Shown here one piece after another: positions 1 to 45,939 of a DNA stretch of 64,000 bases. Under the pieces are notes generated by a model that saw only the letters and a list, made by a program, of their open reading frames with translations, had not been told where the DNA came from and searched no databases. A program made the translations under genes and the position numbers. Source of the stretch: a bacterium (GTDB lineage Bacteria > UBP7 > UBA6624 > JBBIMK01); NCBI GenBank assembly GCA_037444445.1, contig JBBIMK010000001.1:5012-69011 (forward strand), written 5' to 3'. Numbering within the stretch: the stretch's first letter is position 1; every line of letters begins with the position of its first letter.

Positions 1-252
1 CGGGTCGTGGTGGTTTCGGACGAACTCAATAACTGATTCGTCCATTCCCACGAAGTGAGCGATGTTTTGCTTGATGAAATAAGCGCCCACGCCCGAATGG
101 GGCCACTTCTTCACAGCGTACCATTCCTTCGGCTCGTACTTTTCCCTGTGCCTGTGGGACCGCGAAACCAACTTACCGAGGTCGTGGAGGAGGGCGGCGA
201 GGGCGATTTTCAAAGCCCCGGAGGAGGGGGTGGATTTGTCTTCTTTATCCAT
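1..252 (-). CDS. Cas10/Csm1-like protein, N-terminal HD nuclease domain only (gene continues left, beyond the window)
   Basis: Reverse-strand translation from the ATG at 252: MDKEDKSTPSSGALKIALAALLHDLGKLVSRSHRHREKYEPKEWYAVKKWPHSGVGAYFIKQNIAHFVGMDESVIEFVRNHHDP. The HD motif (LLHDLGK) sits about 20 aa from the start. The HSGVGAYF and NHH elements match the layout of the Csm1 N-terminal HD domain (LLHDIGKxxxR..H..VGAxxF...YHH). The frame stays open to the window edge. Confidence 0.5.
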   Translation of the reverse strand, partial: MDKEDKSTPSSGALKIALAALLHDLGKLVSRSHRHREKYEPKEWYAVKKWPHSGVGAYFIKQNIAHFVGMDESVIEFVRNHHDP

Positions 253-302
253 TCTGGCTCTTATTATATCGCAGGATGGGGGGGGTAAGTCCTTTTTAAT
301 TT

Positions 303-731
303 TCATTTCCCCATTTTTTTCAGGAGGATTTTTTCCTGCTGATGGAGCCGGGGGAGGTAATCCCGGTAGAGAAAGCGAACGGTTCGCTCATATTTCAAGC
401 GAATATCTTCTGACTGAGAATAGAGGTATTTGCCAGTTCGGATGATTTCAAACTGGAGAATATAAGGGGCTGTCTGCAGGTCTATGACATCCAGGCGGTC
501 GGTGGGAAGGGCTTGAGAAACATCAGCATAGAAAAGGGAGTCAGAAAAGCCCTCATCCGGAAGAATGGCAAGGTCAATATCTATGGCAGCAGAAAGGTGG
601 GAAGCGGCGGAACCGAAAAGGTAACAGAGCCGAAGGGAATGTCGGGGAAGAAGAGTTTTCAATAACTCCAACCGGTTCCGGATGTCTGCAGGCAGGGGTT
701 TGAGCCCGGCATATTTTTCGGGAAGACTCAT
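303..731 (-). CDS. MNT-type minimal nucleotidyltransferase (HepT/MNT antitoxin-like) with no HEPN partner
   Basis: 142 aa. Pol-beta-type nucleotidyltransferase signature LFGSAASHLSAAIDIDLAIL (GS-x10-DxD). Only 45 nt separate it from the downstream Cas10-like start, so there is no room for a HEPN gene. Confidence 0.75.
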   Translation of the reverse strand: MSLPEKYAGLKPLPADIRNRLELLKTLLPRHSLRLCYLFGSAASHLSAAIDIDLAILPDEGFSDSLFYADVSQALPTDRLDVIDLQTAPYILQFEIIRTGKYLYSQSEDIRLKYERTVRFLYRDYLPRLHQQEKILLKKMGK

Positions 732-744
732 CGTCCTACACCCT

Positions 745-856
745 ACGCATTATATCAGGGGAGGGGGCAAGGGTTGCGGGGCGGGAGGAGACAAGCTCCT
801 CCCCTACATAAGCAATAATACGCATTATATCAGGGGAGGGGGCAAGGGTTGCGGGG
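745..856. repeat. Two perfect 37-bp direct repeats (745-781 and 820-856) separated by a 38-bp unique spacer. Either a mini CRISPR-like array or a tandem promoter/operator duplication.
   Basis: ACGCATTATATCAGGGGAGGGGGCAAGGGTTGCGGGG occurs twice, identically, 75 bp apart. The pair fills nearly the whole cas6-MNT intergenic region. The spacer contains the inverted repeat GGAGGAG...CTCCTCC. Each repeat has a small palindrome GCAAGGGTTGC. Confidence 0.85.
749..757 (-). promoter_or_regulatory. Extended -10 element TGATATAAT (minus strand) inside the proximal repeat, about 17 nt upstream of the MNT ATG
   Basis: The reverse complement of forward 749-757 (attatatca) is TGATATAAT, the TGn+TATAAT consensus. 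An identical copy lies at 824-832 in the second repeat. Confidence 0.45.
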
Positions 857-858
857 GC

Positions 859-1635
859 TCAGGGGTTGAGGGAGGTGGCGCCAAAGCCCATAGGGGTTTT
901 GTAGCCGATTCCGCAAAGGGGGGCGAAGGTGGCGAGAGCGGAGAGCATCTTTCGTTCGGGTTCGGAAAATTGCCCGGGGAAGTGGTATTCGCATTCGCCT
1001 TTGAAGCCGATGATGCTGTAGGTGGAGAAAGGGACGAGTTCAGTGTGGAGGCGGTAGCGGCCCACGAGGATGTGAGAGAAGAGGTTGTTGAGGTCGGGCG
1101 GGAAGGCGATGGGGCTGAAGGCATTCCAGCGGTCTAAAAGGGAAGCAAAGACGAGATGGGGGTCGGGGAAGAGGATGCTTTTCCCTTTCTGACGGAAGCA
1201 GGTGGGGGTGAGGAAGTGGAAGGTGATTCGGGTTGCGGGTTCTGCGTGCTGAAAGATTTCTTCAAAGGAGGTGGAAGCGACTTCTACAGACTGGATTCTG
1301 ATTTTGCCGGAGCCTAAGAGGGAAGGGGAGCGAAGAAGGAAGGCTTTTGTAATGATTTCGGGCTGGGGGCCGAAGTAGTGGAGAATCAAGGTGAACCCTG
1401 TTTTTTCGGAGATGGAAAGGGAGCCTTTTTCGGGACGTTGGGCGGTGAGGAGATGTATGGAGAAGGGTTTCCGGGGAAGGTGATGGAGTCTGTCGGCAAG
1501 GGGGGCGCTGGATTTTTGGAGGAGGGTAAAGAAAAGGGCGTGGGCTTCTTCACCGCCGTAGCCCCGTAGAGATAGAGCCTGGAGAGATTTCAACCGGATC
1601 TGGAAGGAGTGGATGGAGGGATTCACAGGGTTCAA
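859..1635 (-). CDS. cas6: Cas6-family CRISPR endoribonuclease
   Basis: 258 aa. C-terminal glycine-rich loop GIGYKTPMGFG matches the Cas6 GhGxxxxxGhG signature. The N-terminal beta-alpha segment (IRLKSLQALSLRGYGGEEAHALFFTLL) resembles the Cas6 ferredoxin fold start. TTG start. Lies next to the Cas10-like gene. Confidence 0.65.
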   Translation of the reverse strand: MNPVNPSIHSFQIRLKSLQALSLRGYGGEEAHALFFTLLQKSSAPLADRLHHLPRKPFSIHLLTAQRPEKGSLSISEKTGFTLILHYFGPQPEIITKAFLLRSPSLLGSGKIRIQSVEVASTSFEEIFQHAEPATRITFHFLTPTCFRQKGKSILFPDPHLVFASLLDRWNAFSPIAFPPDLNNLFSHILVGRYRLHTELVPFSTYSIIGFKGECEYHFPGQFSEPERKMLSALATFAPLCGIGYKTPMGFGATSLNP

Positions 1636-2840: not shown

Positions 2841-2890
2841 GGTGGCATGTTAGGGCAAGAGGGTGAGAGGGCAAGAGGGAGAGAGGGCAG
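2841..2890. repeat. Imperfect tandem 16-mer (AGGGCAAGAGGGWGAG, about 2.5 copies); pyrimidine-rich on the transcribed (minus) strand just upstream of truD
   Basis: gggcaagagggtgagagggcaagagggagagagggcag read directly from the sequence. Confidence 0.6.
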
Positions 2891-35688: not shown

Positions 35689-36818
35689 TATTTCTCACCT
35701 CTTTCGTATTCTTCCTGATATAATTCCACGAACTCTTGTTTTTCCTGCTTTAAGAACCATGGCTCTTCCGCATAAACATCTTCTAAGAAAGAAGCGAGAG
35801 GTGGATGAGGAGAACGCTCTGCAATTTCATAGGCTTGCATCACCTGTTCCTTAAGTTGTTCAAGCAGTTCACTATCGGATTTTTCAGAGAGTATGCTTTC
35901 GCGAATCAAGAACAGGCGGAGGCGTTTAATGGGGTCGCGTTTTTTTTGCCAGTCTTCTACTTCTTCCGGCCTTCTATATCGCTTATCGTCATCAGCGGAA
36001 GAATGAGGCGCATAACGGTAAGTGACAGCCTCAATCAAGGTGGGTCCCTGACCCGACCGGGCTTTTTGTACAGCGTAGTGAGTTACCGAATAAACAGCCA
36101 GAACATCGTTTCCATCCACACGAAATCCATCAAAGCCATAAGCACAGGCTTTCACAGCAATGGTTTTCGTGGCCATCTGGAAGTTCAGAGGCACAGAGAT
36201 AGCATATTGATTGTTCTGGCAAAAGAAAACGACGGGGCATTGGAAAACGGCGGCGAAATTCAGCCCCTCGTGGAAAGCGCCTTCAGAAGTTCCACCATCT
36301 CCGAAATAAGTCATAGTGACGCTACTCTCTTTACGATATTTAGACGCATAAGCCGTGCCAACTGCTTGAGGGATTTGTGTACTGACAGGGCTGGAAAGGG
36401 TAATCAGATGCAAATCATAGCGTCCCAGGTGACCGGGCATCTGCCGCCCTCTGGCAGGGTCAAGGCTCCTGCTCATGAAATGACCAAATATCTCCTCCAG
36501 GGGCATTCCTCGGGTAATAAATACACCTTGTTCTCGGTGGGAAGGATATATCCAGTCCTGAGGTTCCATGGCATAGGCGCTTCCCACCTGGGCTGCTTCT
36601 TGCCCAGCACTACTGGCATAAAAAGCAATTTTACCCTGCTTCTGGAGAATAAGGGTCCGCTCATCCAGCAAGCGAGTAACCCACATAAGCCGATATAATT
36701 CCACGATTTGTTTATCGGTAAGACCATGGTCCCAGTGGCTCACCTGCCGACCTTCTTCATCCAGAATCCGCAGAGACTCTTCCGTAAAAGGCTTTAACTC
36801 AAAAGATTGCACCTTCAT
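35688..36818 (-). CDS. 2-oxoacid dehydrogenase E1 component alpha subunit (TPP-dependent)
   Basis: TPP-binding GDGGTSEGAFHEGLNFAA; abuts E1-beta. Confidence 0.8.
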   Translation of the reverse strand: MKVQSFELKPFTEESLRILDEEGRQVSHWDHGLTDKQIVELYRLMWVTRLLDERTLILQKQGKIAFYASSAGQEAAQVGSAYAMEPQDWIYPSHREQGVFITRGMPLEEIFGHFMSRSLDPARGRQMPGHLGRYDLHLITLSSPVSTQIPQAVGTAYASKYRKESSVTMTYFGDGGTSEGAFHEGLNFAAVFQCPVVFFCQNNQYAISVPLNFQMATKTIAVKACAYGFDGFRVDGNDVLAVYSVTHYAVQKARSGQGPTLIEAVTYRYAPHSSADDDKRYRRPEEVEDWQKKRDPIKRLRLFLIRESILSEKSDSELLEQLKEQVMQAYEIAERSPHPPLASFLEDVYAEEPWFLKQEKQEFVELYQEEYERGEK

Positions 36819-42850: not shown

Positions 42851-44050
42851 ATGAATGAGAAGAATGTTTTTCACTTAGATGACTTCTTTCTGGAAACAAT
42901 AAAAGACCCTCATCTTTTGAAAATTCAAGAGAAAATCCAGAGCGGGGAAAGGCTCTCCAGAGAGGATGGCTTGATGCTTTTGAAAACCAGGGATTTGCAT
43001 TTTCTCAGCTATCTTGCAGAAGGTGTAAAACGCGCGCGGACAGGGGACAAAGTTTACTTCGTTGTGAATTGCCATATCAACCCAACCAATCTTTGCGTCC
43101 TCTCATGCAAGTTCTGTTCTTTCTATGCCAGGAAAGGAGACCCGAGAGGTTATGAAATGACGGTGGAAGAAATTTTTCAAAAAATTGACCGGGTCAAGGA
43201 GAGGGTAAAAGAGATTCATATTGTCGGGGGGCATCACCCTGACTGGCCCTTTGAGGTCTATGTGAACCTGATTAGAATCCTGCGAGAGCGTTATCCAGCG
43301 GTGAACTTAAAAGCGTATACCGCCGCAGAAGTGGATTATTTCACCCGCATCACCAGACGGTCAGCTAAAGAAGTCTTAATAGAATTAAAAGAAGCAGGAT
43401 TGGATACGATGCCTGGTGGAGGAGCAGAAGTATTTTCTGACCGTCTTCATAAACTTCTCTTCCCTGGAAAAGCCTCTCCTGAGCGATGGTTGGAAGTCCA
43501 TCGCATCGCTCACTCGCTGGGAATTCGTTCTAATGCAACCCTGCTTTTCGGGCATATCGAGACACACGAAGAGATTGTGGAACATCTTTTGAAACTTCGC
43601 ACGCTTCAGGATGAAACCGGGGGATTCCTTTGTTTCGTTCCACTTACTTTCCACCCGGAGAATAACGAACTATCATACATTCGTTCATCTTCGGGTGTAG
43701 AGGACCTGAAAATCGTGGCGCTCTCCCGATTGATGCTGGATAATTTCCCGCATATCAAATCTTACTGGATACAACTGGGAGAACGAACCGCTCAGGTAGC
43801 ACTCCACTACGGAGCCGATGACCTGGACGGAACCATAGTAGAAGAAAAAATTACTCATTCTGCAGGCGCTAAAACTCCAGTAGGGCTGACCTGCGAAAAT
43901 CTGATTCGCCTCATACAAAAAGCAGGCTTCCTTCCCGTAGAACGCGATGCATATTATAACGAGTTAGTTTCATACCCTCAATCGTCCTTTTCACTCTCTC
44001 CTTCCTATTTATCGGGCAACGATGGATTTCGCCCCGAGTTCTCTCAATGA
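42851..44050 (+). CDS. Radical SAM menaquinone enzyme, MqnC/MqnE family
   Basis: CVLSCKFCSFYA (Cx3Cx2C); ggagag Shine-Dalgarno before the ATG at 42851. Confidence 0.8.
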   Translation: MNEKNVFHLDDFFLETIKDPHLLKIQEKIQSGERLSREDGLMLLKTRDLHFLSYLAEGVKRARTGDKVYFVVNCHINPTNLCVLSCKFCSFYARKGDPRGYEMTVEEIFQKIDRVKERVKEIHIVGGHHPDWPFEVYVNLIRILRERYPAVNLKAYTAAEVDYFTRITRRSAKEVLIELKEAGLDTMPGGGAEVFSDRLHKLLFPGKASPERWLEVHRIAHSLGIRSNATLLFGHIETHEEIVEHLLKLRTLQDETGGFLCFVPLTFHPENNELSYIRSSSGVEDLKIVALSRLMLDNFPHIKSYWIQLGERTAQVALHYGADDLDGTIVEEKITHSAGAKTPVGLTCENLIRLIQKAGFLPVERDAYYNELVSYPQSSFSLSPSYLSGNDGFRPEFSQ

Positions 44051-44888: not shown

Positions 44889-45939
44889 AGCGAAGGAACG
44901 ACTCAGTCCGGAGGAAGGGTTAGCCTTGCTGAGTGAAGCACCACTTCAAGTTCTGGGTATGCTGGCGGACACCGTCCGTGCCCGATTTCATCCTGATAAT
45001 CTGGTGACTTTTGTGCTGGATGCCAACCCGAACTACACCAATGTATGCGAGACCTATTGCCTGTTCTGCGCCTTCTATCGCACTCAGAAGGATAAAGAGG
45101 CTTACACTTATTCTGTATCTGAAATGTTAAACCAAATAAGGCAACTCAGAGATGCGGGAGTTACCACGATTCTTCTCCAGGGGGGCCACAATCCGGAATT
45201 ACCCCTGGATTATTACCTGGAGTTAGTTCAACGAACCTGCGAAGAAATTCCTGAAGTTCATCCTCACTTTTTTTCTGCTTCTGAAGTGGACGAGATGGCA
45301 AGAGTATCCGGACTTTCCACTCGGGAAGTTCTGCAAAAACTCTATGATGCCGGGTTACGAACGATGCCCGGCGGGGGTGCAGAAGTTCTAAGCGACCGAG
45401 TGCGCAGAAAAATCAGCCCCCTGAAAATTTCTTCCGATGAATGGATTCGTATTCACAGAGAAGCCCATGAAGTGGGTATCAAAACCACCTGCACGATGAT
45501 GTTCGGACACCTGGAAGAAAATCCAGACATTCTGGAACATCTGGAACGAGTGAGAAAATTACAGGATGAAACCGGGGGATTCCTCGCTTTTATTCCCTGG
45601 ACCTTCAAGCCCCATAACACTGTTTTAGAGCGTAAAATCCCCTATGAAGTGGATGCGGAACGCTATCTTCGTATCCTCGCACTCTCTCGCATTTACCTGG
45701 ATAACTTCGCCCACATACAGGGCTCTTGGTTCACCCAGGGCAAAAAAATGGGAGCCATCTCTCTTCATTTTGGAGCCAATGACCTGGGTGGCACTCTCTA
45801 TGTGGAAAATGTTTTGAAAGAAGCGGGAAATCCTTACACCGCTTCCATAGATGACATCGTGCATTTAATTCACACCGCAGGTTTTATCCCCGCTCAGCGC
45901 GATACCTTCTACCGGATTATCAGAACCTTCGCAGAATAA
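44833..45939 (+). CDS. Radical SAM menaquinone enzyme, MqnC/MqnE family (second paralog)
   Basis: CETYCLFCAFY (Cx3Cx2C); collinear with the first paralog. The ORF is open from 44728, so the start is probably internal. Confidence 0.8.
   Translation: MNSSAFRTAHLQDILGKVRAKERLSPEEGLALLSEAPLQVLGMLADTVRARFHPDNLVTFVLDANPNYTNVCETYCLFCAFYRTQKDKEAYTYSVSEMLNQIRQLRDAGVTTILLQGGHNPELPLDYYLELVQRTCEEIPEVHPHFFSASEVDEMARVSGLSTREVLQKLYDAGLRTMPGGGAEVLSDRVRRKISPLKISSDEWIRIHREAHEVGIKTTCTMMFGHLEENPDILEHLERVRKLQDETGGFLAFIPWTFKPHNTVLERKIPYEVDAERYLRILALSRIYLDNFAHIQGSWFTQGKKMGAISLHFGANDLGGTLYVENVLKEAGNPYTASIDDIVHLIHTAGFIPAQRDTFYRIIRTFAE

What the first reader, a model, noticed from the sequence alone, without database searches (positions are those of the whole stretch)
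745..856. Intergenic region made entirely of two perfect 37-bp repeats: mini-CRISPR or duplicated extended -10 promoter
ACGCATTATATCAGGGGAGGGGGCAAGGGTTGCGGGG occurs at 745-781 and 820-856 with a 38-bp unique spacer. This is CRISPR-like geometry (37/38), sits directly between cas6 and the MNT/cas10 genes, and would be co-transcribed with cas6. However, the repeat lacks a canonical 3' handle. On the minus strand each copy contains a perfect extended -10 (TGATATAAT) correctly placed for MNT, which starts 13 nt beyond the proximal repeat. The pair may therefore be tandem promoters or operator sites. The spacer itself is palindromic (GGAGGAG-N5-CTCCTCC). A degenerate partial third copy overlaps the cas6 stop (tcaggggttgagggagg). 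Either a 1-spacer array or a repeat-borne promoter driving the csm operon is unusual.
Basis: seen in the sequence. Interest (0 to 1): 0.75.

Follow-up and report, generated by a model that had tools for sequence, protein, structure and literature searches.

The report
Duplicated promoter module, not a CRISPR
The two perfect 38-bp repeats between cas6 and the MNT/cas10 genes are most likely a recent local duplication of the genes' own promoter (a TGATATAAT box plus a C-rich tract), not a one-spacer CRISPR array, so this is an ordinary although neat piece of promoter evolution.

Summary
A perfect 38-nt direct repeat lies at 744-781 and 819-856, with 37 nt between the copies, and fills the cas6-MNT intergenic gap; there is no other copy in the 64 kb. 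The CRISPR reading is not supported.
- The closest Cas6 relative with a visible array (72% identical) uses an unrelated canonical repeat, GTCTCAACC...ATTGAAAC.
- Rfam reports no CRISPR repeat here.
- The element is absent from the orthologous locus of a related hot-spring bacterium. That locus has a single CTGATATAAT box overlapping the cas6 stop, 20 nt before the MNT start.
- The "spacer" is not foreign. One half is an imperfect inverted copy of the repeat and the other half a direct copy (joint P <= 0.0004). Their junction makes the 8-bp hairpin.
- The repeat's 5' half resembles the last 17 nt of cas6, and a diverged copy sits upstream of cas10.

GATATAAT is enriched in the window (7 found, 1.6 expected), and five of the seven lie 10-24 nt upstream of start codons or, for the distal repeat copy, in the same module. 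The best reading is a lineage-specific rearrangement of a native extended -10 promoter, giving tandem promoters for MNT-cas10. The genome's own CRISPR array could not be retrieved.

The parts
819..856 (-). Distal copy of the 38-nt module (R1). On the minus strand it reads CCCCGCAACCCTTGCCCCCTCCCCTGATATAATGCGTA. It starts 2 nt after the cas6 stop codon.
744..781 (-). Proximal copy of the 38-nt module (R2), identical to R1. It ends 12 nt before the MNT ATG.
824..832 (-). Extended -10 box TGATATAAT of the distal copy. The inferred transcription start lies at about 816-818, at the start of the spacer.
   Evidence: for the box; the start position is an inference from sigma-70 geometry
749..757 (-). 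Extended -10 box TGATATAAT of the proximal copy, 17 nt before the MNT ATG. The inferred transcription start lies at about 741-743.
   Evidence: the homologous box is present in L010
782..818 (-). The 37-nt 'spacer' S. Its minus-strand 5' half (TTATGT-AGGGGAGG) is an imperfect inverted copy of the module's -10 box plus C tract. Its 3' half (CTTGTCTCCTCCC) is a direct 11/13 copy of the module's CTTGCCCCCTCCC.
   Evidence: joint P<=0.0004; D3, I1, I3
783..803 (.). 8-bp perfect hairpin GGGAGGAG-ACAAG-CTCCTCCC inside S, formed where the inverted and direct C-tract copies meet.
855..872 (-). Degenerate tandem sub-copy (78%) of the module's 5' half. It overlaps the last codons and the stop codon of cas6.
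   Evidence: D2
263..289 (-). Diverged copy of the module (R') directly upstream of cas10: CTTACCCCCCCCATCCTGCGATATAAT. Its TATAAT lies 10 nt before the cas10 ATG.
   Evidence: score 22; 4 of 2440 background windows score as high
859..1635 (-). cas6. Its start overlaps the end of TruD.
303..731 (-). MntA-type minimal nucleotidyltransferase, the antitoxin half of an MNT-HepT pair. It is the gene immediately downstream of the repeats.
291..305 (-). Remnant of the HepT toxin gene, ATGAAAATTAAAAAG (first 5 codons). Homology to the L010 HepT gene stops here.
1..252 (-). 5' end of a cas10/csm1-like gene (HD domain). It continues beyond the window edge.

Best explanation
The element is a lineage-specific local rearrangement of the native promoter that lies between cas6 and the MNT gene.

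The ancestral state is preserved in the orthologous locus L010. There, one C-rich tract plus CTGATATAAT box overlaps the cas6 stop codon, 20 nt upstream of the MNT start.

In the window's lineage, small duplications expanded this region in three ways:
- A tandem copy of the last ~17 nt of cas6 became the 5' half of the module.
- A partial inverted copy and a partial direct copy of the module now form the 'spacer' and its hairpin.
- A recent exact duplication produced two identical 38-nt modules 75 bp apart.

Inferred function:
- Each module carries a perfect extended -10 (TGnTATAAT) and needs no -35 element, so sigma-70 RNA polymerase should start about 7 nt downstream of each box.
- The proximal start would give a ~10-12-nt leader on MNT.
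- The distal start would give a ~85-nt leader that begins with the hairpin.
- Transcripts would continue into cas10, which also has its own diverged copy of the module.
- Read-through from TruD-cas6 is also possible, since no intrinsic terminator is predicted between cas6 and MNT.

Shown: the anatomy, the homology relations, and the absence of the structure in the ortholog. Inferred: promoter activity and start sites.
For: (1) Ortholog comparison. L010 has the same gene order (YjbQ-TruD-cas6-MNT), with Cas6 70% and MNT 75% identical. It has one CTGATATAAT box at the cas6/MNT junction and no R-S-R structure.
(2) Promoter motif. GATATAAT occurs 7 times in the window against 1.6 expected (0 of 100 shuffles reach 7). 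Four sites lie 10-24 nt upstream of ATGs: cas10, MNT, the four-helix-bundle gene and the gene at about 51044. The distal repeat copy is the fifth. The other two are antisense inside a coding gene.
(3) Same slot in other lineages. L001 has caggTGATAAAAT twice and L002 has TATATAAT in front of HD-domain ORFs downstream of cas6.
(4) Copy upstream of cas10. A diverged copy of the module sits exactly upstream of cas10 (score 22; 4 of 2440 background windows score as high).
(5) Spacer origin. The spacer resembles the repeat itself, with its inverted half at p~0.002-0.008 and its direct half at p~0.005-0.02. The joint P is <=0.0004 under mononucleotide shuffles, dinucleotide shuffles and random genomic windows. 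The repeat finder confirms it.
(6) Repeat origin. The repeat's 5' half is a 78% tandem copy of the cas6 3' end.
(7) Duplication-prone lineage. Other short C/G-tract duplications occur in the same operon. A 16-nt tandem upstream of TruD is not repeated in this form in the close relative L009.
(8) Against CRISPR.
Against: - There are no transcription data, so promoter activity of either copy is inferred from consensus only.
- The 38/37/38 geometry matches CRISPR dimensions closely: the relative L001 has a 37-nt repeat and 35-44-nt spacers. No simple tandem duplication gives R-S-R with an unrelated right flank. S against the downstream flank gives p=0.3 with strict gap penalties and 0.014-0.07 with lenient ones.
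- Perfect identity of the two 38-mers next to pieces that are only ~80-85% identical needs either a very recent last step or gene conversion.
- The source genome's own CRISPR array lies outside the window and could not be retrieved. Similarity of R to the cognate repeat is therefore excluded only through a relative with 72% Cas6 identity.
- The similarity statistics for R' and the sub-copies are individually modest and involve low-complexity C/G tracts.
Confidence: 0.62

Rival explanations
1. Functional one-spacer mini-array. The cas6 read-through transcript would be cut by Cas6 in both repeats, giving a crRNA-like RNA. That RNA would either guide the type III complex or act as a regulatory guide of the CreA/CreR/crlRNA kind. 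One candidate target is the MNT/cas10 promoter, to which the spacer is partly complementary.
For: - The geometry is CRISPR-like and the element lies inside a cas locus on the cas6 strand, with no terminator predicted between.
- Known regulatory mini-arrays are two repeats plus one spacer, and they often regulate cas or toxin-antitoxin cargo promoters. Repeat-like sequences are enriched near cas6 in type I-B loci (PMC10120712).
- The spacer has an 8-nt perfect match, and a 15/18 gapped match, complementary to the -10 box and C tract of the repeat.
Against: - The repeat is unrelated to the cognate repeat of the 72%-identical Cas6 (16/37, p=0.086).
- The last 8 nt are AAUGCGUA, against AUUGAAAC in that relative.
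- The repeat has no hairpin (MFE -1.7 kcal/mol, z=-0.75), and there is no Rfam CRISPR-DR hit.
- The element is not conserved in the orthologous locus.
- The spacer has no match of 11 nt or more anywhere else in the 64 kb, including the cas promoters.
- Its only 'target' is its own flanking repeat, which would simply fold the precursor.
Confidence: 0.06
2. Neo-CRISPR. Cas1-Cas2 would have integrated one prespacer off-target into the promoter and duplicated a repeat-length (37-38 bp) stretch of target DNA on both sides, as happens during normal adaptation. The promoter duplication would then be a by-product.
For: - R-S-R with a 38-bp perfect flanking duplication and a 37-bp insert is the footprint expected of the CRISPR integrase.
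- The dimensions match the array of the relative L001: 37-nt repeat and 35-44-nt spacers.
- The related cas loci L001 and L002-L007 encode Cas4-Cas1 fusions, and L001 also Cas2.
- Off-target integration that creates new repeat-spacer-repeat units has been reported for E. coli, with circumstantial evidence in two other species. This is Nivala et al. 2018, as cited in 10.1101/148544, PMC6698737 and PMC11788318.
- The insert is not a decayed copy of the flank under strict scoring.
Against: - The insert is not random foreign DNA. Both halves resemble the duplicated target itself, one inverted and one direct, at only ~80-85% identity (joint P<=0.0004). A captured prespacer should not do this.
- It also contains a perfect 8-bp hairpin (0 of 200 shuffles fold as well).
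- No protospacer was found.
- The target shows no significant similarity to the relative's repeat.
- The repeat length of the source genome's own system is unknown.
- The same region shows other small duplications that have nothing to do with integrase geometry (D2).
Confidence: 0.08
3. Real duplication, but not tandem promoters. Only the proximal box, or neither box, would fire. The structure would instead be a neutral slippage or template-switch product, or would act through DNA or RNA structure. The candidate structural roles are:
- an operator made of direct and inverted repeats;
- alternative pairings of the G-rich spacer segment (R1 C-tract against GGGGAGGAG, or GGGAGGAG against CUCCUCCC);
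- a C-rich Rho-loading region;
- G-quadruplexes on the template strand.
For: - In the read-through RNA the spacer's G-rich segment can pair either with the upstream repeat or within the spacer (z=-3.05, 0 of 200 shuffles fold as well).
- The repeat is C-rich and unstructured on the mRNA strand (18 C and 5 G of 38).
- Each repeat is a canonical G4 motif on the plus strand. Only 3 such motifs exist in the 64 kb, and all are in intergenic regions of this operon.
- The element is absent from the ortholog, so it is not required for the locus to function.
Against: - Nothing specific points to a regulator, and no other copies of the palindrome exist in the window.
- The perfect extended -10 is the one feature conserved across lineages.
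- The structural propensities follow almost automatically from juxtaposed C and G tracts.
Confidence: 0.2

Closest known systems
Tandem or duplicated sigma-70 promoters of the extended -10 (TGnTATAAT) class
   Same: - Two identical TGATATAAT boxes lie 75 bp apart on the coding strand, upstream of the same gene.
- There is no recognisable -35 at 17 nt, as is typical for extended -10 promoters.
- The box is conserved at the same position in an orthologous locus.
   Different: - Activity is untested.
- The copies are embedded in a 38-nt perfect repeat whose spacing mimics a CRISPR unit.
- The sequence between them is a scrambled copy of the same module.
Regulatory CRISPR mini-arrays (CreA of CreTA, CreR, crRNA-like RNAs; Shmakov et al. 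2023, PMC10120712)
   Same: - Two repeats plus one spacer.
- Located between cas genes next to cas6 and next to a toxin-antitoxin-derived cargo gene.
- The spacer is partly complementary to a promoter.
   Different: - The repeats are not variants of the CRISPR repeat used by the nearest Cas6 relative.
- The element is not conserved in the related locus.
- The complementarity is to the element's own repeats and is interrupted.
- The host effector is type III-like, a type for which such elements have not been supported.
Neo-CRISPR units from off-target Cas1-Cas2 integration (Nivala, Shipman and Church 2018, known here only through citing papers)
   Same: A single insert of spacer length, flanked by a perfect duplication of repeat length at a non-CRISPR site.
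   Different: - The insert is related to the duplicated sequence itself and is palindromic.
- No protospacer was found.
- The site's similarity to the canonical repeat is not significant.
MNT-HEPN (MntA-HepT) toxin-antitoxin cassettes lodged in CRISPR-cas loci
   Same: An MntA-type gene sits between cas6 and the HD-nuclease gene. L010 has the intact MNT-HepT pair, and L001 has an unrelated MNT-HEPN pair in the same slot.
   Different: Here the toxin gene has been deleted down to 5 codons, and the antitoxin gene has acquired a duplicated promoter.

Membership tests
CRISPR array (bona fide, Cas6-processed) | Repeat matches the repeat family recognised by the associated Cas6 and effector, including the 8-nt 5'-tag sequence at its 3' end | tested here: not met
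   The 72%-identical Cas6 in L001 sits next to a 12-repeat array with GTCTCAACCAATCCTAATTCCCAAGGGGAATTGAAAC. R matches it at 16/37 positions (p=0.086). R ends in AATGCGTA. The source genome's own array could not be retrieved, so this test is indirect.
CRISPR array (bona fide, Cas6-processed) | The same repeat is present in a longer array elsewhere, or in any public sequence | tested here: not met
   - No other copy in the 64 kb.
- 0 exact hits for a 26-nt core in genome contigs.
- 0 hits for a 25-nt core in metagenome contigs.
- 0 hits for a 24-nt core in viral contigs.
- No plasmid hit.
- The rest of the source genome was not searchable.
CRISPR array (bona fide, Cas6-processed) | Spacer is unique DNA of foreign origin (a protospacer exists) | tested here: not met
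   No protospacer was found. The spacer resembles its own repeats in inverted and direct orientation (joint P<=0.0004).
CRISPR array (bona fide, Cas6-processed) | Match to a curated CRISPR direct-repeat RNA family | tested here: not met
   Rfam 15 gave no hit at gathering threshold on the whole window. It gave no CRISPR-DR hit at E<=10 on 200-1000.
CRISPR array (bona fide, Cas6-processed) | Processing into crRNA by Cas6 | not testable with these tools
   Needs RNA-seq or an in vitro cleavage assay.
Regulatory mini-array (CreA/CreR/crlRNA type) | Repeats are divergent variants of the system's CRISPR repeat | tested here: not met
   (indirect, through the nearest relative).
Regulatory mini-array (CreA/CreR/crlRNA type) | Spacer has contiguous partial complementarity to a cas or cargo promoter | tested here: inconclusive
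   There is no match of 11 nt or more elsewhere in the window. The only match is 8 nt perfect, or 15/18 with gaps, to the -10 box and C tract of its own flanking repeats. The rest of the cas operon lies outside the window.
Regulatory mini-array (CreA/CreR/crlRNA type) | Conserved in closely related cas loci | tested here: not met
   Absent from the orthologous junction in L010 and from the junctions downstream of cas6 in L001 and L002.
Extended -10 sigma-70 promoter | TGnTATAAT motif at a suitable distance upstream of a start codon | tested here: met
   TGATATAAT at 749-757(-) has its TATAAT 17 nt before the MNT ATG, and a second copy lies 75 bp upstream. There are only 4 TGnTATAAT sites in the 64 kb.
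Extended -10 sigma-70 promoter | Motif conserved at the orthologous position and used at other genes of the genome | tested here: met
   L010 has CTGATATAAT 20 nt before its MNT ATG. GATATAAT is enriched 7 against 1.6 expected and precedes the cas10, four-helix-bundle and ~51044 genes.
Extended -10 sigma-70 promoter | Transcription starts about 7 nt downstream of the box | not testable with these tools
   Needs dRNA-seq, 5'-RACE or in vitro transcription.
Neo-CRISPR from off-target Cas1-Cas2 integration | Flanking duplication equals the system's repeat length, and the insert equals its spacer length | tested here: inconclusive
   38/37 fits the relative L001 (37-nt repeat, 35-44-nt spacers). 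The source genome's own repeat length is unknown.
Neo-CRISPR from off-target Cas1-Cas2 integration | Insert is a captured prespacer unrelated to the target site | tested here: not met
   The insert is composed of diverged inverted and direct copies of the target module.

The most novel reading that the evidence does not exclude
The unit could be a nascent, self-referential CRISPR-like element. In one version it was born by off-target Cas1-Cas2 integration into the MNT/cas10 promoter. In the other it is a regulatory mini-array whose 'repeats' are the promoter itself and whose spacer RNA is partly complementary to that promoter's -10 region. Either version would couple cas6 read-through to the control of the toxin-antitoxin remnant and cas10.
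Probability: 0.08. Interest if true: 0.7.

Novelty: new member of a known kind. Interest (0 to 1): 0.25.

Why it matters
- For CRISPR annotation, it is a clean false-positive example. Perfect 38/37/38 geometry inside a cas locus can arise from local rearrangement of a promoter. The tell-tale signs are a spacer related to its own repeats, absence from the ortholog, and no relation to the cognate repeat.
- Biologically, it documents how the cas6/HD-nuclease junction is remodelled. These hot-spring bacteria show toxin-antitoxin insertion, toxin loss and promoter duplication at this one junction. That may change how MNT and the type III effector genes are expressed.
- If the minority reading (off-target integration) were right, it would be a rare natural snapshot of the birth of a CRISPR unit.

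Tried and rejected
- Retrieving the source contig (261,674 nt, NCBI) to see the rest of the csm operon and its array: exact look-ups of Cas6, MNT, P0001 and P0016 all failed.
- Exact-pattern scans with repeat cores: genome contigs, metagenome contigs and viral contigs all returned 0 hits.
- Profile-based locus search for Cas6: none in genome contigs, and only a duplicate of the L001 locus (L008) in metagenome contigs.
- Homologue search with the 84-aa Cas10 fragment: no candidates.
- Protospacer searches for the spacer: nothing significant in phages (best E=0.5) and nothing in viral contigs. The plasmid search used the whole 732-870 region and gave one chance hit in the repeat part.
- Simple 75-bp tandem duplication followed by decay: rejected as the main model. 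S against the downstream flank is not significant with strict gap penalties (p=0.3) and only marginal with lenient ones (0.014-0.07). Zero changes in the 38 nt next to a heavily diverged flank is also implausible.
- Intrinsic terminator role for the spacer hairpin: no T run on either strand.
- Repetitive REP/MITE-like element: the hairpin and the repeat are unique in the window.
- The plus-strand ORF 682-1137 that spans the repeats was ignored, because it is antisense to both MNT and cas6.

Full report
**Observation.** Window 744-781 and 819-856 carry a perfect 38-nt direct repeat, TACGCATTATATCAGGGGAGGGGGCAAGGGTTGCGGGG, with 37 nt between the copies.
- No shuffle of the window gives a match, and no third copy with up to 3 mismatches exists in the 64 kb.
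- The window contains no CRISPR-like array at all, and Rfam finds no RNA family at gathering threshold.
- The 37-nt interval contains a perfect 8-bp hairpin, GGGAGGAG-ACAAG-CTCCTCCC (-15.6 kcal/mol; 0 of 200 shuffles fold as well).

**Context.** All relevant genes are on the minus strand.

| Gene | Coordinates | Note |
|---|---|---|
| TruD | 1632-2840 | its end overlaps the cas6 start |
| cas6 | 859-1635 | PF10040; TIGR01877 above cutoff |
| MntA-type nucleotidyltransferase | 303-731 | |
| cas10/csm1-like gene, HD-domain 5' end | 1-252 | leaves the window |

- The cas6 stop is 2 nt from the distal repeat, and the MNT ATG starts 13 nt after the proximal one.
- Read in the gene direction, the repeat is CCCCGCAACCCTTGCCCCCTCCCCTGATATAATGCGTA. 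That is a C-rich tract followed by a perfect extended -10 box.

**Is it a CRISPR?** I could not retrieve the source contig. The genome's own array is therefore unknown, and this is the main gap.

Indirect tests all come out negative:
- The closest Cas6 relative with a visible array (72% identity, locus L001) lies in a type I-like locus. That locus ends in a canonical 12-repeat array with repeat GTCTCAACCAATCCTAATTCCCAAGGGGAATTGAAAC, 37 nt long, with spacers of 35-44 nt.
- That repeat has the usual 3' hairpin and ATTGAAAC tag. The window's repeat matches it at 16/37 positions (p=0.086), ends in AATGCGTA, and does not fold (-1.7 kcal/mol, z=-0.75).
- No Rfam CRISPR-DR family matches, even at E<=10.
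- Exact scans with repeat cores found nothing in the genome, metagenome or viral collections.
- The spacer has no protospacer in phage or viral collections, and the whole region has no real plasmid match.
- The spacer has no match of 11 nt or more anywhere else in the window.

**Comparative evidence.** The MNT protein has one close relative, 75% identical. Its contig (L010) comes from JGI sample 3300010938, which is mentioned in a paper on the Chocolate Pots hot springs. L010 is the syntenic locus, with the order ...Asn synthase, glycosyltransferase, AMP-ligase, YjbQ, TruD, then MNT-HepT.
- Between TruD and MNT lies an intact cas6 that the original annotation did not call. It encodes 278 aa, 70% identical to the window's Cas6.
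- In L010 the cas6 stop codon lies inside a single CTGATATAAT box, 20 nt before the MNT ATG, and there is no repeat-spacer-repeat.
- The -10 box is therefore ancestral at this junction, and the 38/37/38 structure is specific to the window's lineage.
- The same slot downstream of cas6 holds similar boxes in front of HD-domain ORFs in two other lineages: caggTGATAAAAT twice in L001, and TATATAAT in L002.
- Within the window, GATATAAT is enriched: 7 sites against 1.6 expected, and 0 of 100 shuffles reach 7. Besides the two repeat copies, it lies 10, 11 and 24 nt upstream of the ATGs of cas10, the four-helix-bundle gene and the gene at about 51044. The remaining two sites are antisense inside an E1 dehydrogenase gene.

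**The element is built from local sequence.**
1. A diverged copy of the module, CTTACCCCCCCCATCCTGCGATATAAT, sits directly upstream of cas10. Its score of 22 is reached by 4 of 2440 background windows.
2. The repeat's 5' half, GGGGGCAAGGGTTGCGGG on the plus strand, is followed in tandem 17 nt later by a 78% copy that overlaps the last codons and stop codon of cas6 (D2).
3. The 'spacer' is not unique DNA.
   - Its minus-strand positions 7-21, TTATGT-AGGGGAGG, are an imperfect inverted copy of the repeat's -10 box plus C tract.
   - Its positions 23-36, CTTGTCTCCTCCC, are an 11/13 direct copy of the repeat's CTTGCCCCCTCCC.
   - The probability of reaching the summed scores is 0.0002 in mononucleotide shuffles and 0.0004 in dinucleotide shuffles. 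None of 5000 random genomic 37-mers reaches it.
   - The repeat finder reports the same relations independently (D3, I1, I3).
   - The hairpin is simply the junction of the inverted and direct C-tract copies.
4. The same operon shows another short duplication, a 16-nt tandem upstream of TruD. In the close relative L009 this stretch is shorter and lacks the near-perfect 16-nt tandem.

A genuine spacer, whether in a working array or from an off-target Cas1-Cas2 event, should not be a scrambled, diverged copy of its own repeats.

**Most likely mechanism.** Small duplications and template-switch events expanded a native extended -10 promoter. The last step was an exact duplication that left two identical modules 75 bp apart.
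- By sigma-70 geometry, RNA polymerase should start about 7 nt after each TATAAT.
- The start at about 741-743 gives a short leader with a GGA Shine-Dalgarno element before the MNT ATG.
- The start at about 816-818 gives a ~85-nt leader that begins with the spacer hairpin.
- No intrinsic terminator is predicted between cas6 and cas10 within 253-858. Transcripts from TruD-cas6 and from both boxes can therefore continue through MNT into cas10, which has its own diverged box.
- These functional statements are inference. Only the anatomy and the homology are shown.

**Rivals.**
- A functional or regulatory mini-array (about 6%) remains conceivable. Such elements are two repeats plus a spacer, lie near cas6 in type I-B loci, and can regulate toxin-antitoxin cargo (PMC10120712). 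Here, however, every defining feature that could be tested fails or is inconclusive.
- Off-target integrase origin (about 8%) is suggested by the dimensions and by the published phenomenon, which I know only through citing papers. The nature of the insert contradicts it.
- A structural or neutral reading (about 20%) cannot be separated from the promoter reading without transcript mapping. It includes operator, alternative RNA pairing, Rho loading and template-strand G-quadruplexes.

**History of the locus.**
- Homology between the window and L010 runs through the MNT stop and the first 14 nt of HepT. It then breaks at about window 290, where the cas10 promoter copy begins. The toxin gene was therefore deleted and the antitoxin gene retained.
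- In L010 the MNT-HepT pair is flanked by a 50-nt, 96% identical direct repeat.
- In L001 a different MNT-HEPN pair is inserted in the same slot, between duplicated fragments of the HD N-terminus.

**Verdict.** The CRISPR interpretation is not supported, and the promoter interpretation is supported by comparison. This is a new example of a known kind of thing, of modest interest. Its main value is as a caution for mini-array calling and as a record of remodelling at the cas6/HD-nuclease junction.

Noticed in passing
window 758-781, 833-857 and 2853-2879 (plus strand): Only three canonical G-quadruplex motifs (four G3+ runs) occur in the 64 kb. Two lie in the repeat copies and one in the 16-nt tandem upstream of TruD. 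All three are on the template strand, in intergenic regions of the same TruD-cas6-MNT operon.
   Followed up: partly
window 2852-2889; L009 13850-13875: A 16-nt tandem repeat, AGGGCAAGAGGGAGAG in 2.4 copies, lies between the four-helix-bundle gene and TruD. In the close relative L009 the corresponding stretch is shorter and lacks the near-perfect tandem. It shares the core GGGCAAG(A)GGG with the 38-nt repeat.
   Followed up: partly
window 1632-1635; L010 9143-9146: In the window the cas6 ORF start (1635) overlaps the TruD stop (1632-1634). In L010 the junction is an ATGA overlap. A tRNA pseudouridine synthase gene therefore appears translationally coupled to cas6 in two lineages. In L001 and L002-L007, cas6 is not next to TruD.
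   Followed up: no
L001 10846-10975, 11650-11846, 11862-11977; L002 10986-11096: Short ORFs encode only the N-terminal HD motif (KIALAALLHDLGK...). They follow cas6 in lineages whose effector modules differ: type I-like in L001, type III-B in L002-L007, and cas10 with an HD domain in the window. This suggests module shuffling with breakpoints in the 5' end of the HD-nuclease gene.
   Followed up: partly
L010 9983-10032 and 10855-10904: The MNT-HepT pair in the orthologous locus is flanked by a 50-nt, 96% identical direct repeat that includes the MNT ribosome-binding site and first codons. The downstream ORF starts with the MNT N-terminus and then diverges. An assembly gap follows.
   Followed up: no
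window 291-305 (minus strand): Only the first 5 codons of the HepT toxin gene survive, so MntA is an orphan antitoxin gene wedged between cas6 and cas10.
   Followed up: yes
L010 9143-9979: An intact 278-aa cas6 was not called in the public annotation of this contig, where small opposite-strand ORFs were called instead. Protein-based searches therefore miss this orthologous locus.
   Followed up: yes
window 35717-35731 and 36692-36706 (plus strand): GATATAATTCCACGA occurs twice, 975 nt apart, antisense within the E1 dehydrogenase alpha gene. This is probably a repeated coding motif rather than a promoter.
   Followed up: partly
window 43607-43656 and 45562-45611: A 50-nt direct repeat at 76% identity, 1955 nt apart. 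It was not examined and may reflect paralogous genes.
   Followed up: no
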